This document shows, one piece after another, positions 27,836 through 45,850 of a stretch of DNA of 64,000 nt (position 1 is its first letter; each line of letters opens with the position of its first letter). Both the position numbers and the translations under genes were made by a program. A model generated the notes under the pieces. That model ran no database searches. It was not told the origin of the DNA and saw only the letters and a list, made by a program, of their open reading frames with translations. Location of the stretch: contig CAWGED010000005.1 in assembly GCA_963821525.1 (NCBI GenBank), forward strand, positions 196,675-260,674, read 5' to 3'. Source of the stretch: an uncultured Gemmatimonadales bacterium. GTDB lineage: Bacteria > Gemmatimonadota > Gemmatimonadetes > Gemmatimonadales > GWC2-71-9.

Positions 27836-27882
27836 GCAGGTCCGAATTACCGTAACCGAGATGCTCAGTCTTACGGCCTGGC

Positions 27883-28866: not shown

Positions 28867-28880
28867 GGTCTCGATTTCGC

Positions 28881-31045: not shown

Positions 31046-31501
31046 CTACATCCCGGCAGGGGCCTCCTTACAGCGGTCCATAAGAGTGGCAGCATCCGTC
31101 CTTACCGTCGACGTGGCGTGAGCCTCGACCGTGGTAATACCGCGTTCGGTCTGGTACTCGTCAAACGTGCTCGCCTTGACAGTGAGATCGGAGCCAAGCG
31201 TGGTACCGGTCGCAGCCTGGAGCTCGATTTGATCGTAATGGCGGCGGAATTTCACGTTCGACTCCCGGTAGGTGCTGTCGTTCTTCTGCCCCATGACCCG
31301 ACGCGCATCGTCATCGTGGACAATCTGCTTGTACCCCATCGATTTGAGCTGTTGCTGGGCACAGGTGTACGCGTCGTCTCTCGCCAGACTGGAAGACGCG
31401 GCGCCGGTGCTGTACAGGGTTCCGCCGCCGCATGCGGCGAGAACAAGAGCGATACTCAGACTGGAGGTGATCCCGACTCCGACTCGCAGGGACATTTTCA
31501 C
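31046..31501 (-). CDS. lipoprotein of unknown function
   Basis: Lipobox LVLAAC|GG. 151 aa. Confidence 0.55.
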   Translation of the reverse strand: MKMSLRVGVGITSSLSIALVLAACGGGTLYSTGAASSSLARDDAYTCAQQQLKSMGYKQIVHDDDARRVMGQKNDSTYRESNVKFRRHYDQIELQAATGTTLGSDLTVKASTFDEYQTERGITTVEAHATSTVRTDAATLMDRCKEAPAGM

Positions 31502-31573: not shown

Positions 31574-31610
31574 CAGGAAAACCAACGGCCCCCCATGACG
31601 GGGGGCCGTT
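31574..31610 (-). terminator. rho-independent terminator after the porin gene
   Basis: AACGGCCCCCC / GGGGGGCCGTT, an 11-bp stem (31584-31610). On the minus strand it is followed by GGTTTTCC. Confidence 0.7.
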
Positions 31611-31646
31611 GTTAGCACCGAATGAACCGCTGAAGCGCTGCCGGGC

Positions 31647-32826
31647 CTAGTAGAACAGCATGAAACCAAACGCGCCGGTGAAGGCCTTGTTTTGCTCTAC
31701 GTTGTTCTCGGTGTCGTCGGATATCATGTAGTTGCCTTCAACGACGATCTTCAGAGACTTGGTAGCCTGGTGGTAAAGGCCGCCGGAGATCAGGCTGTTG
31801 CTGGTCTTGAAGTCGGGCTCGCCGTCGGTGCTCTGGAGCATGCTGGTGCCGTAGCTGGCCGCCAGGGTGTTCTTCTCGCCCAAGCCGATCGTCGCCTGAG
31901 CAAAGCCGCCGTAGGAGTCGCGCAGCTCGCCATCGGCTCCGACGCCCAATCCGCCCAGGGCCGGGCCAACGCCAGAGAAATAAGGGTGGTGCCGATGCCC
32001 TTGCCCCAGTAGCCGGTTCCGGTGAGCGAGAACTTGCCGTTCTCCGTCTTGAAGGTGAGGCCGCCGCCTACGCCCGTGGCAGTCTTGGACTGATCAGCCA
32101 CCGGGTCCTTGGCGTTCTGGGCCGTTCCGTTGATGAACAGGTTGATGTTCTTGCCCTTCCACGTGAACTCGCCTTCCAGCCGCGGGAGATCGGTCTGGGT
32201 GTAGTTGCCGTCGAGCGCGGAAGGATCCATCAGGCCGATGCTCAACTGGGTGGGTCTGCCACTCTTCGTCGAGTAGGTGATCTGGCCCACGAAGTTGGCA
32301 TAGGGATACCCATAGCCGATACGGCCCAGCGTGGTGCCGCTCGGGGCGATGCCACCGCCACCGACGCCGAACAGGGTCTGGTCCGCCAGGATGTTCCCGC
32401 GGGCGAACAGGCCCAGTTCCTTACCGGCCAGGATCTGGCCCCAGCCCCCGCCGACGGTCAGGAACACCTGACGCATATCGATCTGGGCGCCGAAGCAGTC
32501 GTGGATGCCGCCACCGCACTGCACTTCGGGCGCGAAGCCGAAGTGGACGCCGAGGTCAGTATTGCCCTCTTTGCCCTTGGCTTCAAACGTCGCGAACGCA
32601 GGCAGCAGGCCGGTGCCGTAGTAGAAGCCCTGGCCTCCCACGCCGGTCAGGGTTCCCGGGGAATCGGTTGTGCCGCCATCTTCTGGCTCTGGTACTGCGC
32701 GAAGATGTTGACGTTCCCCGCGAACGAGAACGTCCAGCCGTTACTCATCTGCATGGTCAGCTGCGCGTTGGCGGTACTCGCCGCGGCTAGCAGCAGACCG
32801 CCCAACAACAGTGCGGAACGCTTCAT
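31647..32826 (-). CDS. outer-membrane porin; frame breaks near 31972-31985 and 32640-32660
   Basis: Signal peptide MKRSALLLGGLLLAAASTANAQ. Three collinear ORFs (32647..32904, 31790..32641, 31647..31949) with beta-strand pattern and C-terminal GFMLFY. Confidence 0.7.
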
Positions 32827-32923
32827 CGGTGCCTTCTCCTGACTAGAAGAGGAATTGGAACTACCCGCTTCATCAACAAGTGCCTGCACCAACTGACGTC
32901 TCAAACAAAGTCAGCGATAGATC

Positions 32924-33286
32924 TCACTCCTTCTGTTGCATCTGCCGTTTGAGATCGTTGTTCACCTCCCAGAAAGCGTACCAGAGCGCGTTTGGACGAT
33001 GGTTCTCCCACCAGAAATAATCGTCGAGCCGGGCCCCATAAACATTGGCCGCATAGCGAAATACCAGCCCATTCACCCGCAGGCTGTCCATTACCCGCCA
33101 CAACCCGGCCGAATCCCGAACGCCAGAGGCAAGCGCCTGACTCAGCGCGCTGCCTGCGAGAAAGCCCGAAAGGAAGGTGTTGCGTGCGTCCGGACTGAGT
33201 TTCGCCCAATCCTGGCCGCTGATCGAAAACCAGTTAGGGTCCCGTATCTCACGAATCGGAAAAAAGATACAAAGACCCGCCAGCAA
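32924..33286 (-). CDS. hypothetical protein
   Basis: 120-aa ORF with TTG start as listed and protein-like composition (Trp/aromatic rich). The frame stays open upstream, so the true start is uncertain. Confidence 0.45.
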   Translation of the reverse strand: MLAGLCIFFPIREIRDPNWFSISGQDWAKLSPDARNTFLSGFLAGSALSQALASGVRDSAGLWRVMDSLRVNGLVFRYAANVYGARLDDYFWWENHRPNALWYAFWEVNNDLKRQMQQKE

Positions 33287-33380
33287 CGCAACCCGGGGCC
33301 ATTGAATTCCTAGGCATCTTAGTCGGATATGAGCGTCCTGTTGGGTTCAATCCACAACCTCGGAATTCACCGGCTCCCCC

Positions 33381-33935
33381 TTAGTTGCTGGTTGAAGCCT
33401 CCACGGAGGGGGCCGAAACCTGGGAACTCACCACGAAACGGATCCACATTCCTGAATGCCCGTGCCCCGGCACTCCGCAAATTATCCGGTACTCCGCAGC
33501 GGGTTCGGCCTTGAAGCGCATGGTGTCCTTCTGCCCCTGGGCGAGTCCCTGCGTGGCTTCCCGAGTGTAAGCTCTAGGGATCGCCGCTTCTTCCGCCATG
33601 TTCGGTATCGGCCCCTCGGCGGGAATCATCACGGCACTGTGCGGGGTGCCATCATCATTCACGAAGGGCATCACGACGGTGGATCCGGCCGGTACTGTGA
33701 GAGTGAGTTCTCCGTTGGTAAAGCCGTTGAAGTTGAACGGACTCTTGGCTCCCCCGGTGAGCCCCGCAATCAACTTGAAGGAGACCGTCTTGGATGCTGA
33801 ATCATAGCTGAGCCAGGTTGAATCAATTGGAAAATGACCGGCGTGTTGCGCTTCGGTGGTCTGCGTCGCCGCCGTGCGGGCAGCGACCAGAGCCGCAAGA
33901 ACTAGCAGAACCTGCCGGGACTCTCGCCAAATCAT
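33381..33935 (-). CDS. sulfocyanin/rusticyanin-type cupredoxin (type 1 blue copper protein), secreted
   Basis: His ligand in DDGTPHSAVM, then C-GVPG-H-GHSG-M-W (C-x4-H-x4-M; 33447-33479). AGGAG plus ATG at 33935 preferred over the GTG at 33962, which abuts the hairpin. Confidence 0.8.
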   Translation of the reverse strand: MIWRESRQVLLVLAALVAARTAATQTTEAQHAGHFPIDSTWLSYDSASKTVSFKLIAGLTGGAKSPFNFNGFTNGELTLTVPAGSTVVMPFVNDDGTPHSAVMIPAEGPIPNMAEEAAIPRAYTREATQGLAQGQKDTMRFKAEPAAEYRIICGVPGHGHSGMWIRFVVSSQVSAPSVEASTSN

Positions 33936-33969
33936 GCCGACTCCTGAAAAAGAAGTAACCACTCAAAGT

Positions 33970-34002
33970 GAAGCGGGCCAGCCGGCATGGCTGGCCCGCT
34001 TC
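33970..34002 (-). other. perfect 14-bp stem hairpin between the PQQ dehydrogenase and cupredoxin genes
   Basis: GAAGCGGGCCAGCC (33970-33983) / GGCTGGCCCGCTTC (33989-34002), 5-nt loop. Only a weak, distal T-rich stretch follows on the minus strand. Confidence 0.7.
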
Positions 34003-34053
34003 TCAAGATAGAACCGGCAAGGGCCTATGAGGAAGCCTCGCCGATCGCCCCGG

Positions 34054-35722
34054 TCATGCGGGGGGCGTATACGCCTTCGGCAGGCCGAAGATGTACACGC
34101 TGTTGCCCAGCGGGTAGCTCAGCTGGAAGTTGCCACCGCAGGCCACCGCGATGAACTGCTCGTTCTTGAACTGTGTAGGTCATCGGAGCGGAGTTGCATC
34201 CGGCGCCCGCCTGGAACTGCCAGAGCAGCTTCCCGGTGCGGGAATCGTAGGCGTTGAAATTCCCGTTGCCTTCTCCGGTGAAGACGAGCCCGCCGGCCGT
34301 CGCCAGGGCCCCGCCCATCATCGGCTGCGGCACCTTCACCTGCCACGCCTTCTTGCCGGTGCCGAGGTTGAGCGCCGTGAACGAGCCCGTACTGCTCCTC
34401 ACCCGGCGATCGCGACGAAGGCCGAACCGAGCCACAGTTTTCCCTTGTCCCACGGCGGCGTTGTGGGTGATGTAGTTCATCGGCTGATGGAGGCCTGCTA
34501 CGAAGGCGTAGTTGAGCTTGGGATCCACCGCGATCGGCGACCACTCTGCACCGCCGTTGGCGCCGGGAAGCATCCGGGTACCCGAAGCGGTGGGCTGGGC
34601 GAACATGTTTTCCTGCGGGGTGAAGTTCTCAGTCTTGCGCACCAGCGTGCCGGTTGCGGCGTCCAGCACGTAGACCCAGGCGGTCTTGCCGGCATGGACC
34701 ACGACCTTCTTGCCGCCCAGCGTGGTGACGACCGGCGGGGACACGGCGTCGAGGTCCCACACGTCGTGCGGAACCGTCTGGTAGTACCACTTGGTCTTGC
34801 CGGTTGTCGCCTCGATGGCGACGACGCAGTCGGTGTACAGGTTATCGCCCGGGCGCACGCTGCCGTCGAGGTCGGGCGAGGGGTTACCAACCGCCACGTA
34901 GATGAGACCGAGGCTCTGGTCGTAGGCCGGAGTCATCCAGACGCCGCCGCCGCCGCGGGTCCACGCGTCCGCGTACTTGGCGCTGTCCGACTTCTCGGCG
35001 CCGGTGTTGCGGTTCAGGTTGTTGCCTTCGGGGGTCGCGTCAACCCAGTTGCCGTACCAGCCATTGGGAGCCGCCTCATCGAAGGTGGGATCGCCCTTGG
35101 GAGCGGGAATCGAATACCAGCGCCAGACCTGCTTGCCGGTCACCGCATCGTAGGCGGTCACGTGGCCCCGGATGCCGTATTCACCGCCCGAGACACCGAC
35201 GATCACGTTGTTGCCGATGACAAGCGGCGCGTGGGTGATGCTGTAGCCGAAGGCCGGATCGGCCACCTCGTTGTCCCAGACAACGTCACCGGTCATCCGG
35301 TCGAAGGCGATGAGGTGGGCATCGAGGGTGCCCATGTAGACGTGCGGGCCATGCACGCCCACGCCGCGGTTGTTGGGGCCGCAGCAGAAGATCGTAGTGC
35401 CGAGCTTGTGCTCGTAACGCCAGACCTGTTTCCCGGTGTCGAGGTTGTACGCGATCAGGGTGTTGTACGGGGTGGTCACGTACATCATGTTCTCAACCAC
35501 GATCGGCGTATTCTCGAACGAGCCGAGCTTGCTGATCCCGGTCTGGAAGACCACCCGAGGCACCAGCGACTTCACGTTTGTGGTATTGATCGCCGTAAGC
35601 GTGGAGTAGCGCTGGTTCCAGTCATTCCCGCCATACGTCATCCACTTGGTCTGGGCGGAGAGGTTGCTGGCAGCCGCTGCGCAAACGAGCATGGCCAGAC
35701 CCCAACGAGAAGCACTGCGCAT
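34054..35722 (-). CDS. PQQ-dependent alcohol/methanol dehydrogenase family quinoprotein with D-x-D (lanthanide-type) signature; C-terminal frame break near 34168-34178
   Basis: Signal peptide. WMTYGGNDWNQRYSTL, vicinal disulfide FCCGPNNRG, eight-bladed propeller W-motifs, PHDVWDLDAV (DLD at 34748-34756). The true C-terminus FKNEQFIAVACGGNFQLSYPLGNSVYIFGLPKAYTPPA is in a shifted frame, with stop at 34054. Confidence 0.85.
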
Positions 35723-35874
35723 GGGAGAAGGTCTCCTGGGTATAGGGAACTGAGGAAACGACCATCGTGCCGCCACGACACAGCCAGACGCGGGCGGAAG
35801 CGCCATTGATACGCAGGCTTTAAGAGGCTCGGGAAGATGCCACCGCCCACGGCCGTGGGACGGCGGCGCTTTTG

Positions 35875-35903
35875 GAAATAGGGCTTGCGACCGGAACCGT
35901 CAA
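35875..35903 (-). promoter_or_regulatory. candidate sigma-70-type promoter for the PQQ dehydrogenase gene
   Basis: On the minus strand: TTGACG (35903-35898), 17-nt spacer, TATTTC (35880-35875). AGGAGA lies 8 nt before the ATG at 35722. Confidence 0.3.
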
Positions 35904-35910
35904 GTGGCCT

Positions 35911-36051
35911 TTAGTGGAATAGGAGCACTGCCTTCTGGAAGGTCATGAAGACCCCCCATCCCAGCGGAATCCCCACCGCGATCCAGGCCAGTGCGACCAG
36001 CCCCCAGTTCCCCGGTTCGGGCTGGCTGCCGGTCGGCTCGTTGGGTTGCAT
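35911..36051 (-). CDS. small membrane protein resembling the MFS transporter small subunit found next to OFA-family transporters (46 aa, below ORF-track cutoff)
   Basis: Own translation: MQPNEPTGSQPEPGNWGLVALAWIAVGIPLGWGVFMTFQKAVLLFH. One TM helix with an IPLxWGV pattern, directly downstream of the OFA MFS gene. Confidence 0.6.
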   Translation of the reverse strand: MQPNEPTGSQPEPGNWGLVALAWIAVGIPLGWGVFMTFQKAVLLFH

Positions 36052-36093
36052 GTGCGTCCCTCCTAGAGGTACCGCTTCTCCGGAACCGTCTCG

Positions 36094-37471
36094 TCAGTGG
36101 CCCCGCAGGCGCTCCCGGGCCAGCTCCTCGTCGGACATGAAGTAGCGATCGGGAAGCGGCCGGACCAGCAGGTTGCAGATGAAACCGATCACCAGGAGCC
36201 CAGCCAGGACGTACATAGTCGTGTTATACGCCTCCGCCACTGGTACCCCGCGGTCCACCTGATGTTGCCGGATCTCGTTCACCAGCAGCGGGCCCACGAC
36301 ACCGGCGGTCGACCAGGCCGTCAGCAATCTTCCGTGAATGGCGCCCACAAACTGGGTCCCGAAGATGTCCGACAAATAGGCGGGGATGGTGGCGAAGCCG
36401 CCGCCATACATCGTGATGATCACGCAGAAGATCGCCACGAAGAGCGCGACGCTGCCGATCCGGCCCGCATGCGGGACCAGTGAGTAGAGCACGATCCCAA
36501 GGGCGAAGAAAATGAAGTAGGTCGGCTTGCGGCCGAGCTTATCAGAGAGCGACGCCCACCCGATCCGCCCCCCGATGTTGAACAGACTCAGGAGTCCCAC
36601 GAAGCCCGCCGCGGCGGAGGCCGACACTTTGTCCTTGAAGACCTCCTGGATCATGGGCGATGCCTGTTCCAGGACGCCGATACCGGCGCTCACGTTGGTG
36701 CACAGGACCAGCCAGAGCAGTATGAAGGGCACCGTCTTCCAGGCCACGTCCACGTGAACATGGCGACGAGTGACCATGCTGACATTAGTGGTAGCGGGCG
36801 TCCACCCCGCGGGTTTCCAGTCATTGGGCGGAATCCGATAACTGAACGCGCCGCACATCATCGTCACGAAGTCAGATGAGACCCATCGTGACGAAGGTCT
36901 CCCAAACACCGACCGAGGTCGGCGTGGCGTAGTGCTTCATCAGGATAACGGCCAGCGGCGCCCCGATCATGGCACCGCCTCCGAATCCCATGATCGCCAT
37001 GCCGGTTGCCATGCCGCGGCGGTCCGGGAACCACTTGATGAGGGTGGAAACCGGTGAGATGTATCCCAGTCCGAGTCCGCACCCACCAATCACCCCGTTG
37101 CCGAGATACAGGAGCCAGAGCTGGTGGGTGCGAACGCCGATTGCGGAGATCAGGTACCCTCCACCCCAGCAGAAGGCGGCCGCGACACCCGCCCTGCGCG
37201 GGCCCACTCGCTCGAGCCAGCGTCCGAACACCGCCGCTGACAGACCCAGGAACACGATGAAAATCGTGAACACGAGGGCGATTTGCGTCTGCGTCCAGTC
37301 GCCTGGGCCGGACTCGGTGATGCCGAGGGCACGAGTGAGCGGAAGTTTGAAGACGCTGTAGGCGTAGGCTTGGCCGATCGAGAGATGGATGGCGAGCGCC
37401 GCCGGTGGGACCAGCCACCGATTGAACCCTGGCTTCGCGACAATACGTTCCTTGTCGAGCAGGCCGGACAT
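36094..37471 (-). CDS. MFS transporter, oxalate/formate antiporter (OFA) family; frame broken near 36870-36885
   Basis: NRWLVPPAALAIHLSIGQAYAYSVFKLPL..., FPDRRGMATGMAIMGFGGG. The C-terminal six helices are in ORF 36094..36909. Confidence 0.8.
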
Positions 37472-37540
37472 CAGCGACTCCTGATGTGGGACGGGTACAT
37501 CCGGGAGGAACCGGCATACATTACCGCGAGCCCGAGAAAA

Positions 37541-38087
37541 ATGCCAACCGACCCGAACCTTTCGATTCCCTCGCTCACGCGAGCCGGACTCACCAGCCTC
37601 ATGCTCGTCCTGGCGGCGATGGGCACTTTGTCCGCCCAGCAGACCGGCGCGCTTCCCCAGTGGATGACCGCAGATTCGGCGAGTCGAACGGTCTCTCTGG
37701 AGCTCAAGGTTGCATGGAGCTGCGGGTTCGCCAGCGACTATCTCGGGCTACCGCCAGGGGGGCGTGGAGGTCGTGGTTCCGGTCGGCTGGACGATTCGCT
37801 GGCGATGGATCAATGGGGACAGCACCGCGGCGCATAGCCTGGTGGTGATGGTGGAGCGGGAGAAACTGCCGGCTGAAGGCGGCAGCCCGGTGTTCGACAA
37901 CGCGATGAGCCGGAATGTCGTCCGTGGTCTAGGCCCCGGGAAAACCGACGAGACCACATTCACTGCGGATCAGGCGGGGTGGTACTGGCTGCTCTGCGGC
38001 GTCCCGGGCCACGCGCTGGGCGGAGAATGGATCGGTCTGAAGGTGGACGCTGAGGCCAAGGCTCCCGCTGCGACGTTCCGGCAGTGA
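37541..38087 (+). CDS. second sulfocyanin-type cupredoxin, axial Met position occupied by Glu; frame broken near 37706-37722
   Basis: Signal anchor LTSLMLVLAAMGTLSAQQ and WMTADSASRTVSLELKV (parallels WLSYDSASKTVSFKLI of the first copy). Then STAAHSLVVM and C-GVPG-H-ALGG-E-W (Glu codon 38025-38027). Confidence 0.7.
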
Positions 38088-38161: not shown

Positions 38162-39328
38162 TTACCTCTCTTGGAGTAACCCCTCCACTTCCGCCCGCAT
38201 CTCCTTCACCAGCTTCGCGTGCTGCTCCGGCAGGGCGGGGCCATAGAAACCGGCGTGAATCCGACGGACTCGACCAGTGCGGTCGAGAAAGATCGTGGTG
38301 GGGAACGCCGTAAAGTTGGTGAGCTGCGGCAGGGTCGCCGCGGCGGCCTCGGTGTCATTGGTTCCCGCCCGAAGCAGGATGAACGGGATGTGGTAGGCAT
38401 CCCGGTACAGTCGCACCTGGTGATTGTCGGTGGCGCTGTCGCCGCTTACCTCATAGGCGAGTCCGACGATCTCCAGCCCGCGGGCGTGGTAGTCCTTATA
38501 GAGCTGCACCAGGGCGGGGGCCGCGTCGTGGCAGGTGGGGCACCAGGTCCCGAACACGTCGATCACGACCACCTTGTCCTTGAGTCGCGGGTCGGCCTCG
38601 GTGATCTGCCGGCCTTCGAGATCGGGGAAGCTGAAGCGGAACGGTGTCGTGTCCGCCGTCGTGATCTCGCTGGGCGACTTGAGATGAGGAACTCCGGTGC
38701 TGCGGACGGCGATGAATCGGGTCTGGGTTCGGAGGCCGGCGTGGAAGATCCCGCGGAGGGTGTCTGCCTTAAGCTGGCCGGTCAGCATGTAGACGTAGGA
38801 GCCGTCGAAGTGGGAGATCGAAAAACTGTCCGCCTGCGCATGTCCCCAGAAAAGACCGTAGTCCCCCGTGTTGGAGATGATGGTTCCCTCGAGGCCCGCC
38901 TGGCCATTGCGTAGCTCGATGACGCGAGGGCTCGCGTCGAAATCGGTCAGGAACTGCGCGTCCCAGCGACCGGTCAGCCCCGCGGGACCTTTCTCGACCG
39001 GCCAACGGCCGCGTCCCGCGCGAAAAGGAATGGTGCGGGGTCCGCGCCGTCCTACGTTGTGATACTCCCCGACCAGGGAATCCCCTCTGGCCACCGCGGC
39101 AATGGTGGCTGCGTAGGCCGAGATGTCGAACACCACGCTGTCGCCGGCGACGCGTACCGCGCTCAGCGCCTGGCACTGCGTCCCATTGCAGAGCTTACCC
39201 TGCCACGTTCCTCCCTTTTGTTCTACCGTGAGCGCGAAGCGAAGAGGGCCTCCGGCAATGTCGAGCACGGCCCGCCACGGGCCAGCGGGGGTGGGAGCGA
39301 CAGTGAGGGCTAGGAGAAGCGTAAACAA
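38162..39328 (-). CDS. TlpA-family thiol:disulfide oxidoreductase with large N-terminal domain
   Basis: VVVIDVFGTWCPTCHDAAP thioredoxin-fold motif. The track start 39409 reads through repeat J. TTG at 39328 followed by FTLLLALTVAPTPA (signal-like) is proposed. Confidence 0.75.
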   Translation of the reverse strand: MFTLLLALTVAPTPAGPWRAVLDIAGGPLRFALTVEQKGGTWQGKLCNGTQCQALSAVRVAGDSVVFDISAYAATIAAVARGDSLVGEYHNVGRRGPRTIPFRAGRGRWPVEKGPAGLTGRWDAQFLTDFDASPRVIELRNGQAGLEGTIISNTGDYGLFWGHAQADSFSISHFDGSYVYMLTGQLKADTLRGIFHAGLRTQTRFIAVRSTGVPHLKSPSEITTADTTPFRFSFPDLEGRQITEADPRLKDKVVVIDVFGTWCPTCHDAAPALVQLYKDYHARGLEIVGLAYEVSGDSATDNHQVRLYRDAYHIPFILLRAGTNDTEAAAATLPQLTNFTAFPTTIFLDRTGRVRRIHAGFYGPALPEQHAKLVKEMRAEVEGLLQER

Positions 39329-39429
39329 TTGACGATTGACGATTGATGATTGATGATTGAACTGCTGTGGACTCGAGATGATTACCAATCTGCAATCGGC
39401 AATCGGCAATTACCAATTGGCAATCATCA
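39326..39429. repeat. 7-nt periodic inverted-repeat element J (GATTGAC/GATTGAT vs CAATCNN; same family as F)
   Basis: attgacg attgacg attgatg attgatg attgaac ... attacca atctgca atcggca atcggca attacca attggca atcatca. Confidence 0.9.
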
Positions 39430-40170
39430 GTACTTCTCCCCGGCACGAATCTCCGCCGACACCCGATTCCCCGGCCACGGCGCCGGGCAGGCGTACGCGG
39501 TGCTGTAGGCGCAGAAGGGATTGCGCGACCGGTTGAAGTCGAGCAGGTAGGTGCTCTCGTCGCGCGGAGTCAGAGTGACGAACCGCCCCGCCGGATAGCT
39601 CCCCTTTCCATTGGTCAGATCCTGGAAATAGATGATCAGCTCCGACTCGCCGCTGTCTTCATCGGCGATCCGGTAGGCCTTGAGATTGGCGGCACCTGAC
39701 TCGAGCGGGATGGTGAAGACGCCGGCCTCTATCGCTTCGGTTTCCACTCCGTCCAGCATGAGAATTCGGTGTGTCACCCGGCTGGCTGGCTTGGTCAGGC
39801 TGCCTATTAGGACGAGGTGAGTATCGGCCGGAAAGTAGCTCGGTATGAGAGTACGGTGCTCCGGGCCGAACACGGTGAGGACGGACCGGCCAGAGGGCCC
39901 CGTCGGCCGGAGCTGGTAGGATCCAATGGCGGTGAGGCGGTCGCGAGGCAGGGGTGTCTTGGTCCCCTGTTGGCTCAGCACCACGCTGCGCCCTTCTTCC
40001 CGCACCGTCATGCGCGTCGAGTTCTTGAGCGGGACGTCGGCGTCCTCCGGTCCGAGCGTGAGCCCCGTTCCGATGGCCTGCTGGGCCAGCGCGGCCAGAG
40101 GTGAATCGGGGGCGTTGGCCAGCCAAAGGGCGAATGCGCTCCGCTCCGCGACGAGGTCATCTCTGGGCAG
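39427..40170 (-). CDS. DUF1684 domain protein; start codon unresolved
   Basis: NRSRNPFCAYSTAYACPAPWPGNRV C-terminal signature. Conserved-looking sequence (AERSAFALWLANAPDSPLAAL) continues in frame upstream of the listed ATG (40011), with no ATG/GTG/TTG before the upstream stop. A CTG lies at 40170. Confidence 0.65.
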   Translation of the reverse strand: MPRDDLVAERSAFALWLANAPDSPLAALAQQAIGTGLTLGPEDADVPLKNSTRMTVREEGRSVVLSQQGTKTPLPRDRLTAIGSYQLRPTGPSGRSVLTVFGPEHRTLIPSYFPADTHLVLIGSLTKPASRVTHRILMLDGVETEAIEAGVFTIPLESGAANLKAYRIADEDSGESELIIYFQDLTNGKGSYPAGRFVTLTPRDESTYLLDFNRSRNPFCAYSTAYACPAPWPGNRVSAEIRAGEKY

Positions 40171-40311: not shown

Positions 40312-41118
40312 TCAGCTCCCGATCGTCCCAACCAGGATGGGCTGGGTCGTGGGCTGGGGCGAACCACCAGCAGGTTCGTTGGTGACCGCGGCGACAGCGA
40401 GGTTCGGGGCTTCCGGAATTGCGACCTGTTGCACCATGGCATGCCCGGTCGGCTCCGCGGTGAACGTCACCGAGGGAATCGGCTTGCCGCCCTTGGGGAT
40501 GAACCAGAGCTGGTAGACCCGTCCGCTCTCGGTCGGCTGCAGGTTGAAGGCGTGAATCAGTGCCACCCGCTTCTTCGGATTCATGAAGAGCTGAATCACC
40601 GGTGCGGGCGTCGAGGTCGATGTCAGGGTCGTAAGGCGTACATCGGGTTCCAGAATCGCATTCAGGGTTGCCTCTCGCTCGGCGAGCTGGGCCTGGGTCG
40701 CTCCGAAGTCTCGTCTCAGCTCGGCGATCGCGGTGTCTCGCTCCGTCACCTGGCGCCGGAGGGCAATCGACTGAAGTCCAAACCCGACAGCCAGCAGGAC
40801 AGCCGCAGCGGCAGCCCAGGGGATCCAGTTGGGCCGGGCCGCCGCCGGCCGTAGCGCTACCACCTTCTCCTTCGCTACGCGAGCGAGCACCCGGTCGCGC
40901 AGGTCGCTGGAGGGACCGGACCCGGCGCCCGCCGTCGTCGTGGTGAGGAGTGTGGCGACTTCCCGGAATTCGGCCACCTCCCGCTGTGCCTCGGGAGACG
41001 TAGCCAGAAAGGCCTCGAACGAGCGAGCCTCCGCCGGATCGAGGGCGCCCAGCGCGTAGGCCGCGGCGAGATCCTTCAAGTCCTGACTATCCCTGTCTTG
41101 ACTATCCGCGCTGCTCAC
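40312..41118 (-). CDS. anti-sigma factor (RskA-like)
   Basis: LAAAYALGALDPAEARSFEAFLATSPEAQREV, central TM helix, C-terminal VYQLWFIPKGGKPIPS. Confidence 0.8.
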   Translation of the reverse strand: MSSADSQDRDSQDLKDLAAAYALGALDPAEARSFEAFLATSPEAQREVAEFREVATLLTTTTAGAGSGPSSDLRDRVLARVAKEKVVALRPAAARPNWIPWAAAAAVLLAVGFGLQSIALRRQVTERDTAIAELRRDFGATQAQLAEREATLNAILEPDVRLTTLTSTSTPAPVIQLFMNPKKRVALIHAFNLQPTESGRVYQLWFIPKGGKPIPSVTFTAEPTGHAMVQQVAIPEAPNLAVAAVTNEPAGGSPQPTTQPILVGTIGS

Positions 41119-41717
41119 AGGCCCGCCTCGTGAAAATAGGGACGCAATGCGTCCCGCAATTTCTGCATTCCCAGTCGCATCCGTGTCTTGACCGTCCCCA
41201 GCGGCTCCGCGAGTCGCTCGGCGATTTCCGATTGCGACAACCCTTCGAAATAGGCAAGCTCGATCGCCTGTCGTTGCGGTGGCGAAAGGTCCGCGAGCGC
41301 GATTGCCACACGCTTGCGGCGCTCGTCGGATTCAACCGCATCGCCCGGCTTCTCCGGCCATCCACCCATCGCCGGGGAGGACGTCGGGTTCTCCCGCGCC
41401 GCCGTCTCAGTGATTCGGGTTCGCCGCTGGCGCGAACGGACCAGATCGAGGGCCCGGCTCCGGGTCATCATCGTGAGCCAGGCGGCCACCGATCCCCGTT
41501 CGCCTTCGAAGCGGGCCGCGCCGCGCCAGGCCTGGGCGAAAGCCTCGAGCACGACCTCTTCCGCATCGGCTCGCTGGCCGAGCATACGGTACGCCACGGC
41601 GTACAGAGTGGGTCCGTATTTGTCGTAGAGGGAAGCCGCCGCGCGTTCGTCGCCTGCTGCCATCTGAGCAACCAGGTCGGCGTCCCGCACTCCGGTGGAG
41701 GTGGTGAGATCGGCCAT
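41115..41717 (-). CDS. ECF (sigma-70 family) RNA polymerase sigma factor
   Basis: Region 2 (LYAVAYRMLGQRADAEEVVLEAF) and region 4 (LSPPQRQAIELAYFEGLSQSEIAERLAEPLGTVKTRMR). Overlaps the anti-sigma start by 4 nt. Confidence 0.9.
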   Translation of the reverse strand: MADLTTSTGVRDADLVAQMAAGDERAAASLYDKYGPTLYAVAYRMLGQRADAEEVVLEAFAQAWRGAARFEGERGSVAAWLTMMTRSRALDLVRSRQRRTRITETAARENPTSSPAMGGWPEKPGDAVESDERRKRVAIALADLSPPQRQAIELAYFEGLSQSEIAERLAEPLGTVKTRMRLGMQKLRDALRPYFHEAGL

Positions 41718-41875
41718 CTGCGCTCGGGCGCGCGAGCTCCGCACAACTGAGGTGACGTGCAACACCGGAACGGTGTCCATCAGTCTATACCCCAGTGCGG
41801 AGCCGCCACAAGACGGCAGCATGCGGTCGCCTCTCCTCTACCGGTCATTTCCTACGCACGGGGCGGCGGTTCAGA

Positions 41876-42337
41876 TCAGTGGACGGTCTTTTCTCCGTCG
41901 TCGCCGGTGAACAGGAGACTCGCTGAGCGGCCGGCGAAGCGAGCCTGCACGATGTTGACCTGATCGGAGAACAACTCGTTGTGAATGGCATTTCGTAAAT
42001 GAGCGCCTGCCAGGCCGCCGGGAACATCGGCCTCCATCGTGATCCAGGTGAGGTCGCCCGTGGCACGGCGGCCGATCCAGTTCATGGCGACCGGAACTCC
42101 CGCTGCCGTCCTGAGGCCGAGGTGAGTCCTGACATACCGGGACAGGAGGGTGTCTTCCGCGGACGGCGAGATGGCGGCCCCCGCTTGCACGGCCGTGTTG
42201 AGGTCGTCGCTGAACGCACGGACTACAATCGTCACTCGCTTTCCACCCGGCTGTTCGACCAGCTCGGTCAATGTGGTGTGCAGCGGGTGCAGGGCGGCAA
42301 CCAGCAATGGAGCCATGAGGAATCGCAGGTCTACCAT
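41876..42337 (-). CDS. DUF6702-like protein
   Basis: HPLHTTLTELVEQPGGKRVTIVVRAFSDDL resembles the HPxH..T..-type N-terminus of proteins encoded next to HupE-like genes. Family call is from memory. Confidence 0.5.
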   Translation of the reverse strand: MVDLRFLMAPLLVAALHPLHTTLTELVEQPGGKRVTIVVRAFSDDLNTAVQAGAAISPSAEDTLLSRYVRTHLGLRTAAGVPVAMNWIGRRATGDLTWITMEADVPGGLAGAHLRNAIHNELFSDQVNIVQARFAGRSASLLFTGDDGEKTVH

Positions 42338-42933
42338 GGCAGCCTCTCTGCAACCATGCGGGACCCGAGCAGTAGTACGAGGCAGCTGACCGCCGTGATG
42401 CGAATCCGAAGCGGAGTCCACCGGCTCCAGACCACGCCGCGGCGCAGGGCGCCATCCAGGGCAGTCAGCGCCGCACCAGCTGCGACCAGTACTACGATTT
42501 GCCCCAGCTCGATCCCGATGTTGAAGCCGAACAGTGGGACCACGATGTGGTCCATGAACAGCCTTTGCAGGTATTCGGCAAACCCGGCGCCGTGAACCAG
42601 ACCAAACAGTGCCGCAAAACCGGCGCGCCAGCGGGTCGGTCGTGCCACCCCCTCACCCGCATGGGTGAAGACGTTGCTCGCCGCGGTCATCACGATCGTG
42701 ACCGGAATCAGGAACTCGATCCAGCGGATCGGCAGCACCAGCGCCCCGGTGGCAGCGAGAACCAGGGTGACCGAGTGGCCCACCGTGAACGCTGTTATGA
42801 CCCACAACGCATCCCGCCAATCCTGCCGCCGGTAGATGGCAGCGAGGGCGAGGAGAAAGAGGATGTGGTCCAGGGCTTCGCGGTTCACGATGTGACCGAA
42901 GCCGAGCTGGATGTAGGTTGTCAGTTCGGACAT
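42331..42933 (-). CDS. HupE/UreJ-family membrane protein
   Basis: GFGHIVNREALDHILFLLALA, TVGHSVTL, GLVHGAGFA; six hydrophobic segments. Confidence 0.7.
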   Translation of the reverse strand: MSELTTYIQLGFGHIVNREALDHILFLLALAAIYRRQDWRDALWVITAFTVGHSVTLVLAATGALVLPIRWIEFLIPVTIVMTAASNVFTHAGEGVARPTRWRAGFAALFGLVHGAGFAEYLQRLFMDHIVVPLFGFNIGIELGQIVVLVAAGAALTALDGALRRGVVWSRWTPLRIRITAVSCLVLLLGSRMVAERLPW

Positions 42934-42946
42934 GGTGGTATTAGCT

Positions 42947-43013
42947 GCAGCCGTCAGCCGTCAGCCGTCAGCCATAAGCTCACGCGTCGAGCTTACGGCT
43001 TACGGCCTATGGC
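42947..43013. repeat. 7-nt periodic inverted-repeat element L (GCCGTCA/GCCATAA vs CTTACGG/CTATGGC; related to C)
   Basis: gccgtca x3 gccataa gctc acgcgtcg agc ttacggc ttacggc ctatggc. Confidence 0.9.
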
Positions 43014-44262
43014 CCCGTAAAAGGGATTGATCTCCTTCGCCATCTCCAACCGCTCCCGCGACAGCAACGAATCCCCCAGTGCCGCAGCGATCTGGCCGGC
43101 ATGCCAGTAGAGCATCGCGTCGCGAGTGCCTTGTGACAGGGCCTGCTCGACGAGCGGAGCCGCTTCGATATCGCGGCCCGACTGGTGTAAGGCCCAGGCG
43201 ACGAGGTCGTAACCGTAGACATCCTTGCGCGTGCGCAGTTCCTCGCTTGCCTTTCGCAGCACAAGAGGAACATCCCGGCCGTGATCCAGCAGGAAGAGGG
43301 ACCAGGCTCTGTGAAAGGCGCCGGGCTGCTGGCTCACCGATACTTCCATCGCCTTGGCGTATTCCGCGGCCTTCGCGGTGTCGCCCTCCGCCGCATAGCA
43401 ATCGCTGAGGAGTCCCAGCGTCGCTGGGTCCAGCACGTTCGCGATCGCCCGTTCGCCGAAACGAATCGCGCCCGACCAATCCTTCTTTGCCGCGTGGAGC
43501 CGTGCCTCAGCACCAAGCAGCCGGTAGTCTTCGGGTGCTTCGCTCAATCCAGAGGCGAATGCCTTGCCAGCCTCGCGGAGCCTTCCCCGACGAAGTTCCA
43601 GATCACCAATTCGCAGATCGAACCAGGCGAGCTGCTCGGCAGGGACGCGGAAGCCGTTGTCCAGGTCGCGACGCACCGAGCGCAGCAGGTCCAGGGCCTC
43701 CACCGGCCTGCCTTCCAACTCGAGCCAGCGGGCGTAGCGGGGCGCCAGTGCCGGTGCATAGCGCTGAGTCGCGATCGTGGAGAAGAGCCGCTTCGCTTCC
43801 TCGTAATGCCCCAGTTCGAGCGCGATCTCGCCCAACATCGCGCGTGTGCCGGGCTCCGAGGAGTCGGCCGCAACCAGTGCCTTCGCCGTCGTGTACGCCT
43901 CGGTGAATCGGTGTTCGGCCAGCAGGGCCGAAGCGAGGAGTGCTGCGGCCTCGCCGTTTCTCCTCGCGCGATGACGATAAGAGGTGCGGGCCGCGTCTTC
44001 CGCTCGAAGCAGGTCCTGATAACTCCCGGTTTCTCGCGCCCGCGCGAGATAAAGGCTGCCGAGCATTGCAAGGTCGCGTGCGCCGTAGGGATCGCGGGCC
44101 ACCCGGGCCTGGTAGAAGGCGATGTCCTGTTCTCGGATCTCGGCGGGAAGGCGGGAAGGTGGTACGGCGGGACGCTTGCTCGTCCGCATGGTGAAACGAC
44201 CAGCCAAGCAGACCAGCGGACGCCAACATGGTAAGAATTCCAAACTGCAGTCGACGAGTCAT
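42993..44262 (-). CDS. TPR-repeat protein with N-terminal signal anchor; frame broken near 44165-44195
   Basis: Multiple TPR-like helices (YGARDLAMLGSLYLARARETG..., GHYEEAKRLF...). The anchor MTRRLQFGILTMLASAGLLGW lies in the frame of ORF 43603..44262. Confidence 0.65.
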
Positions 44263-44362
44263 CGCCAGGTACTCCCAGTCGCAAGAGCCATCGGTTGGTG
44301 ATCAGCGCCGAAGCGGACGGGTGGGCGTTGTGACCGTCCAGCCCGTCCGCCTTCCCGCCCGC

Positions 44363-44950
44363 CTAGTTCGGCGGCGCCAGATACGGGAAGCTCGCCGAGA
44401 ACGGCGAGTCGCTCGCCACGTTATCAGTTGTCAGAGCCGGCGTAGTGTGGGTCGGATCGGCGCCAAACGGATCGCCGAAGATCGCGAGCAGCGCGAGATC
44501 CACTACGTCGTCATCCAGCTTCCGCCCACCCCAGCCGTTCACCAGCGGCGGCAGGTCCACGATGTTGAGCCAGCTGGCGGTATTGGTCGGCTTGTCGGTC
44601 TGGACTACCAGCACATCCGGCAGCAACACGCTGCCCAGCGCGCTGATGTATGCGGGATCGCGTCCCGCGACGGTGGTCACGAAATTCACCACCTTGGGCG
44701 CCACCAGAGCCGCATCCTGGTCGGGGCCGATCGAGCCATGCAGCGAGTGGTCCCGCTTGTCGAGCAGCACTTCGCTGATCAGAGGATTGCCCAGCCGCTG
44801 GACCTGGTTGAAGGCCTGGTTGGGATCGGGGCCGGCGGTGCCACCGCTGTTGCTATCGTCGCTGCAGGCGCCGGCCAGCAGCGCAAGCCCGAGCGCGAGG
44901 CCGGGCAGGACCACGCGGCGCAGGGCCGGCAAATCGATGGAGTTCTTCAT
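44363..44950 (-). CDS. lipoprotein matching the C-terminal half of DUF4331
   Basis: Lipobox LALLAGAC|SDD. RLGNPLISEVLL...GRKLDDDVVDLAL. The ATG at 44980 is an alternative start. Confidence 0.65.
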   Translation of the reverse strand: MKNSIDLPALRRVVLPGLALGLALLAGACSDDSNSGGTAGPDPNQAFNQVQRLGNPLISEVLLDKRDHSLHGSIGPDQDAALVAPKVVNFVTTVAGRDPAYISALGSVLLPDVLVVQTDKPTNTASWLNIVDLPPLVNGWGGRKLDDDVVDLALLAIFGDPFGADPTHTTPALTTDNVASDSPFSASFPYLAPPN

Positions 44951-44994
44951 GAGAGCTATCCTCGGAGTCGGGTCAGTCATGGTGTGGGAGGTCT

Positions 44995-45723: not shown

Positions 45724-45850
45724 GACCGGACTCCTGGAGATGAGAGTGACGAAGCCTGGGACCGTCGGCGACGGAGACCGTCTCCTTCGCCTGCGCCCCA
45801 TCTACGCCCGTCACCGGGGTCCGGATCTATGGCCTATGTATGAGTGGAAA

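What the first reader, a model, noticed from the sequence alone, without database searches (positions are those of the whole stretch)
31647..38087. Lanthanide-signature PQQ dehydrogenase clustered with two cupredoxins, an OFA transporter with its small subunit, and a porin, with no cytochrome c partner
The quinoprotein (34054-35722) has the vicinal Cys-Cys and the sequence PHDVWDLDAV. An Asp two residues after the catalytic Asp (D-x-D, 34748-34756) is the diagnostic usually used to separate lanthanide-dependent XoxF/PedH-type enzymes from Ca-dependent ones, which carry Ala/Ser/Thr there. Canonical xox/mxa loci encode a cytochrome cL (XoxG/MxaG) and XoxJ next to the dehydrogenase. Here the next gene is a secreted sulfocyanin/rusticyanin-type blue copper protein (33381-33935), and a second copy is divergently encoded at 37541-38087. 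The same strand also carries an oxalate/formate-antiporter-family MFS gene plus its 46-aa small subunit (upstream), a small unknown gene and a porin (downstream). This could be a periplasmic alcohol or C1 oxidation module that hands electrons to a cupredoxin and exports or imports a C1/C2 acid. The electron-transfer pairing is inference.
Basis: partly seen in the sequence, partly recalled or inferred. Interest (0 to 1): 0.65.

Follow-up and report, generated by a model that had tools for sequence, protein, structure and literature searches.

The report
Copper-protein-coupled PQQ alcohol dehydrogenase locus
A soil Gemmatimonadales bacterium encodes a lanthanide-type PQQ alcohol dehydrogenase whose likely electron acceptor is a small blue-copper protein rather than the usual cytochrome c, because close relatives carry that copper domain fused to the enzyme.

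Summary
Window 31647-38087 holds a PQQ dehydrogenase with Cys-Cys, Glu, Asn and D-x-D, and two sulfocyanin-family (SoxE) cupredoxins. It also holds an MFS transporter with its 46-aa small subunit, a conserved small gene and a porin-like gene. No c-type cytochrome gene occurs anywhere in the 64 kb.

Three corrections apply:
- The window is full of single-base indels. Four +1 insertions lie inside the dehydrogenase gene, most likely sequence errors (dN/dS 0.049 once removed).
- The transporter matches the SfMCT L-lactate/monocarboxylate model, not oxalate/formate.
- The upstream cupredoxin belongs to a separate lineage with Glu at the axial-Met position.

The enzyme lies outside the MxaF, XoxF and PedH/ExaA groups, in an uncharacterised Gemmatimonadota radiation.

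New evidence supports the electron-transfer pairing:
- 67 of the 120 best matches to a relative are PQQ propeller plus C-terminal Met-type SoxE fusions, and other relatives carry plastocyanin-type domains.
- The sister clade has an overlapping PQQ-DH/SoxE/small-gene operon.
- Proteobacterial homologues have a cytochrome c gene at that position.
- 80 related species loci hold no cytochrome c.

I found no description of this pairing. Lanthanide use, substrate and actual electron transfer remain untested. I rate it a new variant of a known kind.

The parts
34054..35722 (-). PQQ-dependent alcohol dehydrogenase, 555 aa after frame correction. It has a Sec-type signal peptide, Cys113-Cys114, Glu181, Asn280, Asp323 and Asp325.
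   Evidence: Pfam PF01011 E 7.5e-82. The corrected protein is 98% identical to the intact P0001. The best solved match is PedH 6zcv, E 1.8e-76. Motif columns were checked against an MxaF control.
34748..34756 (-). Codons for Asp323-Leu324-Asp325, the D-x-D lanthanide-ligand signature.
   Evidence: Translation. 129 of 152 aligned relatives read DxD at these columns, and MxaF reads DYA.
34172..34458 (-). Stretch holding four single-base insertions (about 34455, 34405, 34383, 34173) that break the dehydrogenase reading frame.
   Evidence: DNA alignment to three independent relatives, L010, L021 and L022. Three-frame translation. dN/dS is 0.049 after their removal.
33381..33935 (-). Met-type sulfocyanin-family cupredoxin with ligands His, Cys, His and Met (CGVPGHGHSGMW). 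It is the proposed direct electron acceptor.
   Evidence: Pfam SoxE E 1e-27. It has the same ligand set as the SoxE domains fused to related dehydrogenases. It is present downstream in 28 of 68 related loci, all in the subclade at 79% identity or above that holds the window.
32924..33310 (-). Conserved small gene of about 120-130 aa. It has an N-terminal hydrophobic segment and the motifs FLAG(S/A)ALSQA and Y(Y/F)WW(E/K)N. Function unknown.
   Evidence: Homologues lie in 50 of the 80 surveyed loci and in the sister-clade operon, where the start overlaps the SoxE stop. There is no Pfam or NCBIfam match. The single-sequence AF2 model is unreliable, pLDDT 56.
31647..32826 (-). Porin-like outer-membrane protein of about 390 aa, with a signal peptide and a C-terminal ...FMLFY. 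It carries two frameshifts in the window.
   Evidence: tblastn with the intact L001 homologue. Weak Porin_4 match, E 0.0022. Present in 50 of 50 loci with enough downstream flank.
31583..31611 (-). Terminator-like hairpin (13-bp stem, 10 GC pairs) just after the porin stop codon.
   Evidence: Terminator-like sites overall were not more frequent than in shuffled sequence.
31046..31501 (-). Small lipoprotein with lipobox LVLAAC. Function unknown. A conserved neighbour.
   Evidence: Sequence. Present in 43 of 46 loci with enough flank. No family match.
35911..36051 (-). 46-aa MFS transporter small subunit.
   Evidence: NCBIfam NF047966, 43.9 bits against a cut-off of 24. Present in 60 of 64 loci.
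36094..37471 (-). MFS transporter of the SfMCT (L-lactate/monocarboxylate) type, with one +1 insertion at about 36873.
   Evidence: The corrected protein scores 331.4 bits on NF049980 (cut-off 320). It scores 171 bits on the OFA model TIGR00890 (cut-off 375). Present in 62 of 64 loci.
37541..38087 (+). Glu-type sulfocyanin-family cupredoxin (His, Cys, His, then Glu at the axial position: CGVPGHALGGEW). It is transcribed divergently, 70 bp from the MFS start, and has one +1 insertion at about 37713.
   Evidence: Pfam SoxE E 2.5e-12. Glu is kept in 120 of the 120 best homologues. AF2 core pLDDT is 85-97, and the nearest solved folds are rusticyanin and auracyanin. 58 of 64 loci are classed Glu-type and 3 more have a SoxE hit of undetermined type.
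38162..39409 (-). TlpA/ResA-like periplasmic thiol:disulfide oxidoreductase (WCPTC motif). A conserved neighbour, possibly involved in maturation of the copper proteins.
   Evidence: Pfam AhpC-TSA and Redoxin. NCBIfam ResA, DsbE and TlpA matches below cut-off. Present in 54 of 60 loci.
39427..40011 (-). DUF1684 protein, a conserved neighbour of unknown function.
   Evidence: Pfam E 1.1e-29. Seen in relatives.
40312..45801 (-). Possibly associated upstream block: anti-sigma RskA (40312-41118), ECF sigma (41115-41822), DUF6702 (41876-42421), HupE/UreJ_2 (42331-42933), a TPR protein (42993-44243) and a split DUF4331 (44363-44980 and 44995-45801).
   Evidence: Pfam. In the sister clade the sigma, anti-sigma, DUF4331 x2 and TPR genes plus a PqqU-like TonB receptor lie directly upstream of PQQ-DH/SoxE. 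The functional link is inferred only.

Best explanation
The locus most likely encodes a periplasmic PQQ-dependent alcohol or aldehyde dehydrogenase of a Gemmatimonadales bacterium.

Shown from sequence:
- The enzyme has the full metal-ligand set of lanthanide-dependent quinoproteins (Glu, Asn, Asp, plus the extra Asp).
- It belongs to an uncharacterised clade outside the MxaF, XoxF and PedH/ExaA groups.
- It is flanked by two SoxE-family cupredoxin genes, and no c-type cytochrome gene is nearby.

Inferred from comparative genomics: reduced PQQ is re-oxidised in one-electron steps by a type-1 copper protein of the sulfocyanin family, not by a cytochrome cL/c550. The downstream Met-type cupredoxin is the free-standing counterpart of the C-terminal SoxE domain that many Gemmatimonadaceae relatives carry fused to the propeller. 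That fusion is the copper analogue of the haem domain of type II quinohaemoprotein ADHs.

Inferred more weakly:
- The upstream Glu-type cupredoxin is the most conserved neighbour. It acts as a second carrier, or in lineages lacking the Met-type gene as the only one. It probably has a lower, pH-sensitive potential.
- The cupredoxin then delivers electrons to a terminal oxidase encoded elsewhere.
- Substrate enters through the co-encoded porin-like protein.
- The carboxylate product is taken up by the SfMCT-like monocarboxylate transporter with its small subunit.
- The TlpA-like oxidoreductase may keep the copper-site cysteines reduced for metal loading.

The frameshifts in the window are most likely sequence errors, not gene decay.
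For: Active-site signature: CC, E, N and DxD are all present, and the alignment was validated by MxaF reading DYA. The requirement for the extra Asp in Ln enzymes is established (Good et al., bioRxiv 10.1101/2020.02.25.964783, listed; the content cited is from my own knowledge).

Fusions:
- P0122 and P0123 (47% identical) are PQQ plus C-terminal SoxE.
- 67 of the 120 best P0122 homologues are such fusions. 66 have an axial Met and 65 have DxD. All are Gemmatimonad-labelled where a name is given.
- Further 50%-cluster representatives carry Copper-bind or Cupredoxin_1 domains: P0128, P0171, P0188, P0190, P0208 and P0269.
- The fused domains share H/C/H/M with the downstream gene.

Phylogeny: the window clade (bootstrap 100) is sister to an unfused Gemmatimonadales clade (100). 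The next group out is the SoxE-fused P0364/P0370 pair (72).

Sister-clade operon: PQQ-DH, Met-type SoxE and the small-gene homologue have 4-nt overlaps.

Positional replacement: Caballeronia, Ideonella and Alloyangia homologues (47-50% identical) have a c-type cytochrome gene immediately downstream.

Conservation across 80 species-level loci: 58 of 64 loci are classed Glu-type SoxE and 3 more have a SoxE hit of undetermined type, MFS in 62 of 64, porin in 50 of 50, TlpA-like in 54 of 60. None holds a cytochrome c, XoxG, PedF or XoxJ homologue. Two sampled Glu-type cupredoxin genes lie in the same locus.

Gene integrity: dN/dS is 0.049 against L010. The same insertions appear against three relatives, and housekeeping genes are equally affected.
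Against: - There is no biochemical evidence for metal, substrate or electron transfer.
- The Met-type cupredoxin is absent downstream in 40 of 68 related loci.
- Some close unfused relatives (P0290, P0363) have no partner gene nearby at all, so partners can be encoded elsewhere.
- The Glu-type protein may not be a normal type-1 electron carrier.
- Deep nodes of the tree are poorly supported, and the tree is only neighbour-joining.
- As written, the window gene is frameshifted.
- No pqq, lanthanide-uptake or terminal-oxidase genes are in the window.
- No interdomain or PQQ-Cu distance could be measured with these tools.
Confidence: 0.6

Rival explanations
1. The cupredoxin genes are conserved neighbours with another role, such as copper handling or another respiratory branch. 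The dehydrogenase uses a cytochrome c or another carrier encoded elsewhere in the genome.
For: The Met-type SoxE is missing downstream in 40 of 68 related loci. Unfused relatives P0290 and P0363 have no adjacent carrier. Synteny in one order-level lineage can persist without a functional link. The Glu-type gene lies on the opposite strand next to a TlpA-like gene.
Against: Repeated, independent domain fusions join this dehydrogenase lineage to three cupredoxin subtypes. The sister clade has overlapping PQQ-DH/SoxE genes. A cytochrome c gene sits at the same position in proteobacterial homologues.
Confidence: 0.2
2. The dehydrogenase and its neighbours are pseudogenes in this genome, so the module is non-functional here.
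For: Four +1 insertions lie in the dehydrogenase CDS. Further frameshifts lie in the MFS, porin and upstream cupredoxin genes. The insertions are not in homopolymer runs.
Against: Frameshifts also hit essential genes: PDH E1a, E2 and E3, and dnaE is split into two overlapping ORFs. This points to sequence quality rather than decay. dN/dS is 0.049 across the whole CDS, including the shifted part. Intact orthologues exist at 98-99% identity.
Confidence: 0.1
3. The enzyme uses calcium or another metal despite the D-x-D motif, and the lanthanide signature is misleading in this uncharacterised clade.
For: No member of this clade has been characterised. The enzyme is only about 35-38% identical to any Ln enzyme with a structure. 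It scores below the NCBIfam TIGR03075 cut-off (446 against 480). No lanthanide-uptake gene is in the window.
Against: All four ligand positions match Ln enzymes, and the Ca-dependent MxaF control in the same alignment lacks the second Asp. The sister-clade operon lies next to a PqqU/Ln-type TonB receptor homologue. DxD is kept in 129 of 152 relatives.
Confidence: 0.2

Closest known systems
Lanthanide-dependent type I quinoprotein alcohol dehydrogenases (PedH of Pseudomonas putida, ExaF, XoxF)
   Same: Eight-bladed PQQ propeller, vicinal Cys-Cys, Glu/Asn/Asp ligands plus the extra Asp two residues after the catalytic Asp, and a periplasmic location. PedH is the best solved match (E 1.8e-76).
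   Different: Identity is only about 35-38%. The enzyme falls outside the XoxF and PedH/ExaA groups in the tree. There is no XoxG/PedF cytochrome and no XoxJ in the window or in 80 related loci. The partner genes are cupredoxins.
Type II quinohaemoprotein alcohol dehydrogenases (ADH-IIB 1kv9, ADH-IIG 1yiq, qhEDH 1kb0)
   Same: A PQQ propeller with a C-terminal one-electron redox domain on a linker. The SoxE-fused relatives have the same layout. ADH-IIB is the third-best solved match. From my own knowledge, ADH-IIB passes electrons on to the cupredoxin azurin.
   Different: In the relatives the fused domain is a type-1 copper domain, not haem c, and in the window it is a separate gene. The known type II enzymes are Ca-dependent, whereas this clade has DxD.
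Methylamine dehydrogenase-amicyanin system (mau operon)
   Same: A periplasmic quinoprotein dehydrogenase whose dedicated acceptor is a cupredoxin encoded in the same operon (my own knowledge).
   Different: The cofactor there is TTQ, not PQQ. The enzyme is unrelated and the substrate is an amine. Amicyanin belongs to the plastocyanin/azurin family rather than the SoxE family.
Sulfocyanin (SoxE of the Sulfolobus SoxM complex) and rusticyanin
   Same: Both window cupredoxins match Pfam PF06525 above its cut-off. The nearest solved folds to the Glu-type model are rusticyanin and auracyanin. The downstream gene has the His/Cys/His/Met ligands.
   Different: Both score below the NCBIfam sulfocyanin equivalog cut-off (91 against 168). 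They are bacterial and are not next to a terminal oxidase. The upstream lineage has Glu at the axial position in 120 of 120 homologues.
SfMCT, the bacterial SLC16-type L-lactate transporter, with the 'MFS transporter small subunit'
   Same: The corrected window MFS passes the NF049980 cut-off (331 against 320). The 46-aa ORF passes NF047966.
   Different: The substrate is untested. The link to a periplasmic dehydrogenase has not been described as far as I found. The pair is missing from the L005/L006 loci and was undetected in 2 to 4 of the 64 surveyed loci.

Membership tests
PQQ-dependent methanol/ethanol dehydrogenase family (PF01011 / TIGR03075) | Eight-bladed PQQ propeller domain over the full length | tested here: met
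   PF01011 E 7.5e-82. Full-length alignments to PedH, ExaA, XoxF and MxaF structures.
PQQ-dependent methanol/ethanol dehydrogenase family (PF01011 / TIGR03075) | Vicinal Cys-Cys, catalytic Asp, and Glu and Asn metal ligands | tested here: met
   CC113-114, E181, N280 and D323 fall in the aligned columns.
PQQ-dependent methanol/ethanol dehydrogenase family (PF01011 / TIGR03075) | Score above the curated NCBIfam cut-off for TIGR03075 | tested here: not met
   446.1 bits against a cut-off of 480.05 for P0001, which is 98% identical to the window protein.
Lanthanide-dependent quinoproteins (XoxF / ExaF / PedH type) | Additional Asp two residues after the catalytic Asp | tested here: met
   D323-L-D325. 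The MxaF control reads DYA, and the XoxF5 and PedH-like controls read DxD.
Lanthanide-dependent quinoproteins (XoxF / ExaF / PedH type) | Phylogenetic placement inside the XoxF or the PedH/ExaF clade | tested here: not met
   The NJ tree places the window clade in a separate Gemmatimonadota radiation. Scores to all solved clades are similar and low, 208-261 bits.
Lanthanide-dependent quinoproteins (XoxF / ExaF / PedH type) | Adjacent dedicated cytochrome c (XoxG/PedF/ExaB) and XoxJ-like protein | tested here: not met
   None in the 64-kb window or in 80 related loci. The positive controls were detected.
Lanthanide-dependent quinoproteins (XoxF / ExaF / PedH type) | Lanthanide-dependent catalytic activity | not testable with these tools
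   Requires a purified enzyme.
Sulfocyanin / SoxE cupredoxins | SoxE domain above the Pfam gathering score | tested here: met
   96.9 bits (downstream gene) and 47 bits (upstream gene) against a cut-off of 21.
Sulfocyanin / SoxE cupredoxins | Type-1 copper ligands His, Cys, His, Met | tested here: met
   This row applies to the downstream gene only: PHS ... CGVPGHGHSGMW.
Sulfocyanin / SoxE cupredoxins | Type-1 copper ligands His, Cys, His, Met (upstream gene) | tested here: not met
   The upstream gene has Glu at the Met position, conserved in 120 of 120 homologues.
Sulfocyanin / SoxE cupredoxins | Score above the NCBIfam sulfocyanin equivalog cut-off (TIGR03094) | tested here: not met
   91.3 bits against a cut-off of 168.4. 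The L001 homologues score 65.8 and 42.2 bits.
Oxalate/formate antiporter (OFA) family MFS | Score above the TIGR00890 / TIGR04259 cut-offs | tested here: not met
   171.5 against 374.85 and 123.8 against 335.
SfMCT-type L-lactate MFS transporter (NF049980) with small subunit (NF047966) | Scores above the curated cut-offs | tested here: met
   331.4 against 320 for the frame-corrected MFS, and 43.9 against 24 for the 46-aa ORF.
Gram-negative porin | Porin family profile match above the cut-off | tested here: inconclusive
   Porin_4 scores 18.3 bits against a cut-off of 27. There is no NCBIfam match. The signal peptide and C-terminal aromatic residue fit an outer-membrane barrel.

The most novel reading that the evidence does not exclude
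Gemmatimonadota have a large family of lanthanide-type PQQ alcohol dehydrogenases that use type-1 copper instead of haem c as the primary electron acceptor. The copper domain is either fused to the propeller (a 'quinocuproprotein') or encoded in the operon. With them travels a dedicated, previously undescribed lineage of sulfocyanin-like cupredoxins with an axial glutamate, which tunes the acceptor potential to the PQQ-lanthanide cofactor.
Probability: 0.5. Interest if true: 0.75.

Novelty: new variant of a known kind. Interest (0 to 1): 0.68.

Why it matters
Lanthanide-type PQQ dehydrogenases are abundant in soil phyla such as Gemmatimonadota. Their electron-transfer partners outside the Proteobacteria and Verrucomicrobia are essentially unknown.

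A copper-protein acceptor would add a third type of redox partner design to quinoprotein ADHs, next to free cytochrome c and a fused haem domain. It would also couple lanthanide and copper requirements in one pathway.

The work gives concrete intact sequences for direct biochemical tests: P0001, the fusions P0122 and P0370, and the Glu-type cupredoxin P0390. Self-contained PQQ-cupredoxin fusions could also interest bioelectrocatalysis. The axial-Glu cupredoxin lineage is a natural case of a ligand set that, to my knowledge, has mostly been studied in engineered azurins.

Tried and rejected
- The small 120-aa ORF: I first thought it was not a gene because it is uncalled in L001. I withdrew this when homologues turned up in L005, L010, 50 of the 80 surveyed loci and the sister-clade operon.
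- Single-sequence AF2 of that small protein gave pLDDT 56. It was unusable and I ran no fold search on it.
- An Rfam scan of the whole window found nothing.
- The promoter and terminator scans were no richer than shuffled sequence. Only the hairpin after the porin gene is worth noting.
- The Keltjens 2014 classification paper is not held. I therefore could not check whether this clade equals the 'PQQ-ADH type 8' that a 2026 preprint reports as abundant in Gemmatimonadota.
- Literature searches for PQQ or quinoprotein together with cupredoxin, sulfocyanin or a cupredoxin domain found no description of this pairing.
- XoxF3 membership: reported Gemmatimonadetes XoxF3 clusters contain XoxG, XoxJ and Cox genes (PMC10875860). 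In my tree a XoxF with cox-gene context sits with the methanol dehydrogenases, far from the window clade.
- A PqqU/Ln-type TonB receptor was sought in the window and not found.
- The reference MxaF used as a search probe came from my memory. Only the retrieved database sequences were used in analyses.

Full report
**What is in the sequence**

The region lies in DNA of about 64% GC from a Gemmatimonadales bacterium. All close protein and locus matches that carry a name are labelled Gemmatimonadales, Gemmatimonadaceae, Gemmatimonadota or Gemmatimonadetes, apart from one partial hit labelled Zoogloea.

Reading the minus strand from 37471 down to 31046, the genes are:
- an MFS transporter (36094-37471);
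- a 46-aa ORF (35911-36051);
- the PQQ dehydrogenase (34054-35722);
- a SoxE-family cupredoxin (33381-33935);
- a small conserved ORF (32924-33310);
- a porin-like gene (31647-32826), followed by a strong hairpin (31583-31611);
- a small lipoprotein gene (31046-31501).

A second SoxE-family cupredoxin (37541-38087) is transcribed divergently, 70 bp from the MFS start.

The dehydrogenase has Cys113-Cys114, Glu181 (SGGEYG), Asn280 (GNPSP), and Asp323 and Asp325 (PHDVWDLDAV, codons 34748-34756). In the same alignment a Methylobacterium MxaF reads DYA, while XoxF5 and PedH-like proteins read DxD. The columns are therefore correctly placed.

**Sequence quality**

The window carries isolated single-base indels in many genes.
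- Against three independent relatives (L010, L021, L022; 89-96% nucleotide identity), the dehydrogenase CDS has four +1 insertions at about 34455, 34405, 34383 and 34173.
- The MFS gene has one at about 36873, and the upstream cupredoxin one at about 37713.
- The porin gene has two deletions.
- PDH E1a, E2 and E3 are frameshifted as well, and dnaE is split into two overlapping ORFs.

After removing the four insertions the protein is 98% identical to the intact 554-aa P0001. dN/dS against L010 is 0.049, including the shifted part. I therefore treat the indels as sequence errors. Very recent decay cannot be fully excluded.

**Placement of the enzyme**

- The best solved relatives score alike: PedH 261 bits, ADH-IIB 256, ExaA 242, XoxF 215-235 and MxaF about 208. 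Identity is about 35-38%.
- The protein falls just below the NCBIfam cut-off for the methanol/ethanol family.
- About 150 clusters at 50% identity are at least as close to it as PedH is.
- I built a neighbour-joining tree of 152 sequences with reference MxaF, XoxF5, a XoxF with cox-gene context, and PedF-context enzymes taken from annotated plasmids.
- In that tree the window clade (bootstrap 100) is sister to an unfused Gemmatimonadales clade (100). The next group out is a pair of SoxE-fused proteins (72).
- It lies far from the methanol dehydrogenases and from the PedH/ExaA-like group. Deep nodes are weak.

So the enzyme shares the lanthanide ligand signature but is not a member of the XoxF or PedH clades.

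**Evidence on the electron acceptor**

1. Fusions.
   - The closest out-of-clade representatives, P0122 and P0123 (47% identical), are PQQ propellers with a C-terminal SoxE domain.
   - Of the 120 best homologues of P0122, 67 have this architecture. 66 have an axial Met and 65 have DxD.
   - Other representatives carry a C-terminal plastocyanin/azurin-type or Cupredoxin_1 domain (P0128, P0171, P0188, P0190, P0208, P0269).
   - More than thirty others carry N- or C-terminal haem c domains.
   - The fused SoxE domains have the same His/Cys/His/Met set as the window's downstream cupredoxin.
2. Sister-clade operon. In the sister clade (66% identical) the order is PQQ-DH, Met-type SoxE, then the small-gene homologue, with 4-nt overlaps between them.
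3. Positional replacement. Proteobacterial homologues at 47-50% identity (Caballeronia, Ideonella, Alloyangia) have a c-type cytochrome gene immediately downstream, at the position of the SoxE gene.
4. Absence of cytochrome c. A generic class I cytochrome c HMM detected XoxG, PedF and those adjacent cytochromes. It found nothing in the 64-kb window or in the six-frame ORFs of 80 related loci. XoxJ was also absent.

**Conservation across species**

A scan of one genome per species found 268 loci, and the best 80 (74-99% identical, all Gemmatimonadales) were analysed. Each count below is out of the loci with enough flanking sequence.

| Neighbour | Loci with it |
|---|---|
| Upstream divergent SoxE classed Glu-type | 58 of 64 (3 more have a SoxE hit of undetermined type) |
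| MFS transporter | 62 of 64 |
| MFS small subunit | 60 of 64 |
| TlpA-like oxidoreductase | 54 of 60 |
| Porin-like gene | 50 of 50 |
| Lipoprotein | 43 of 46 |
| Small gene | 35 of 50 with at least 3 kb of downstream flank (50 of all 80 loci) |
| Downstream Met-type SoxE | 28 of 68 |

All loci with the Met-type gene belong to the subclade at 79% identity or above that holds the window. PQQ-DH/SoxE(Met)/small gene therefore looks like the older core, shared with the sister clade, and one subclade has lost the Met-type gene. The Glu-type cupredoxin is the constant companion within the window clade. Two Glu-type genes sampled independently also lie in this locus.

**The Glu-type cupredoxin**

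All 120 best homologues keep C-x4-H-x4-E-W, with His98, Cys152, His157 and Glu162 invariant, along with a VVMxEREKLP loop. The AF2 core is confident, and the nearest solved folds are rusticyanin and auracyanin at about 20% identity. I could not verify the copper geometry. From my own knowledge of engineered azurin Met121Glu, a lower and pH-dependent potential is plausible. Its role as a carrier is inference.

**Transporter and other neighbours**

The frame-corrected MFS passes the NCBIfam equivalog cut-off for the SfMCT L-lactate transporter (331 against 320). It stays well below the OFA models. The 46-aa ORF passes the 'MFS transporter small subunit' model. This fits uptake of a carboxylate product, but the substrate is unknown.

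Upstream on the same strand lie DUF1684, an ECF sigma/anti-sigma pair, DUF6702, HupE/UreJ_2, a TPR protein and a split DUF4331. In the sister clade, homologues of the sigma, anti-sigma, DUF4331 and TPR genes plus a PqqU-like TonB receptor lie directly upstream of the PQQ-DH/SoxE operon. That hints at a cofactor or metal acquisition function, which is untested. The window itself has no pqq genes, no PqqU-like receptor and no terminal oxidase.

**Comparison with the literature**

Published Gemmatimonadetes XoxF3 clusters contain XoxG, XoxJ and Cox genes (PMC10875860). A 2026 preprint describes many Ln-type eight-bladed clades and cytochrome partners but no copper partner (10.64898/2026.07.10.737718). 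Searches of the held library that combined PQQ or quinoprotein with cupredoxin, sulfocyanin or cupredoxin domain found no description of this pairing or of the fusions. Subscription journals are not covered, so this absence is not proof.

**Verdict**

The locus is best described as a cupredoxin-coupled, lanthanide-signature PQQ alcohol dehydrogenase module typical of Gemmatimonadales. It is a new variant of the quinoprotein ADH systems. Its fused relatives are the copper analogue of quinohaemoproteins. Metal, substrate and electron transfer all remain to be shown experimentally.

Noticed in passing
window, many genes (e.g. 10808-14336, 25103-29966, 31647-32826, 34172-34458, 36873, 37713): Isolated single-base insertions and deletions break many genes, including PDH E1a, E2 and E3, and dnaE is split into two overlapping ORFs. 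The four in the dehydrogenase are all +1 and are not in homopolymer runs. The window looks like an error-prone assembly.
   Followed up: yes
window 37541-38087 (+); homologues P0390-P0509: A lineage of sulfocyanin-like cupredoxins has Glu at the axial Met position (C-x4-H-x4-E-W) and an invariant EREK loop. It has 1215 homologues at E 1e-5 or better, and 120 of the 120 best keep the Glu. I found no description of it.
   Followed up: partly
window 32924-33310 (-); L105:9291-9686; L005:11726-12127: A conserved protein of about 120-130 aa has an N-terminal hydrophobic segment and the motifs FLAGxALSQA and YYWWxN. It always lies just after the PQQ-DH (and SoxE) gene, and it overlaps SoxE in the sister-clade operon. 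It has no family match and no usable structure model.
   Followed up: partly
window 40312-45801 (-); L105:589-6890: An ECF sigma/anti-sigma pair, a split DUF4331, a TPR protein, HupE/UreJ_2 and DUF6702 travel with the dehydrogenase locus. In the sister clade the DUF4331/TPR set, with a PqqU-like TonB receptor (NF041535, 350 bits, far below the cut-off of 1200), lies directly upstream of PQQ-DH. This may be a metal or cofactor uptake system.
   Followed up: partly
L016 (Variovorax boronicumulans plasmid NZ_CP138497.1) 3917-6058: A PedH-like DxD PQQ dehydrogenase has a high-potential iron-sulfur protein gene immediately downstream. This suggests yet another type of electron acceptor for this enzyme family.
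   Followed up: no
representatives P0132, P0133, P0136, P0146, P0170, P0214 and others: A clade of relatives has Gly in place of the catalytic Asp (GYD), and several lack the Cys-Cys. They may be non-catalytic or 'empty' quinoprotein homologues (compare the TIGR04528 match).
   Followed up: no
representatives P0159, P0168, P0176, P0183, P0184, P0254 and others: Many relatives carry one or two haem c motifs in an N-terminal extension rather than the C-terminal haem domain of the classical type II enzymes. P0124 carries an N-terminal PMT-type glycosyltransferase region, and P0247 a C-terminal carbohydrate-binding module.
   Followed up: no
window 23956-30925 (-): Lipoyl synthase, the pyruvate dehydrogenase E1a/E1b/E2/E3 genes and a lipoate-protein ligase lie directly downstream of the locus. 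LipA follows the locus in most of the 80 surveyed loci, and the PDH genes were seen in the few Pfam-annotated relatives (L001, L004, L006). Next to an L-lactate-type transporter this may or may not be meaningful.
   Followed up: no
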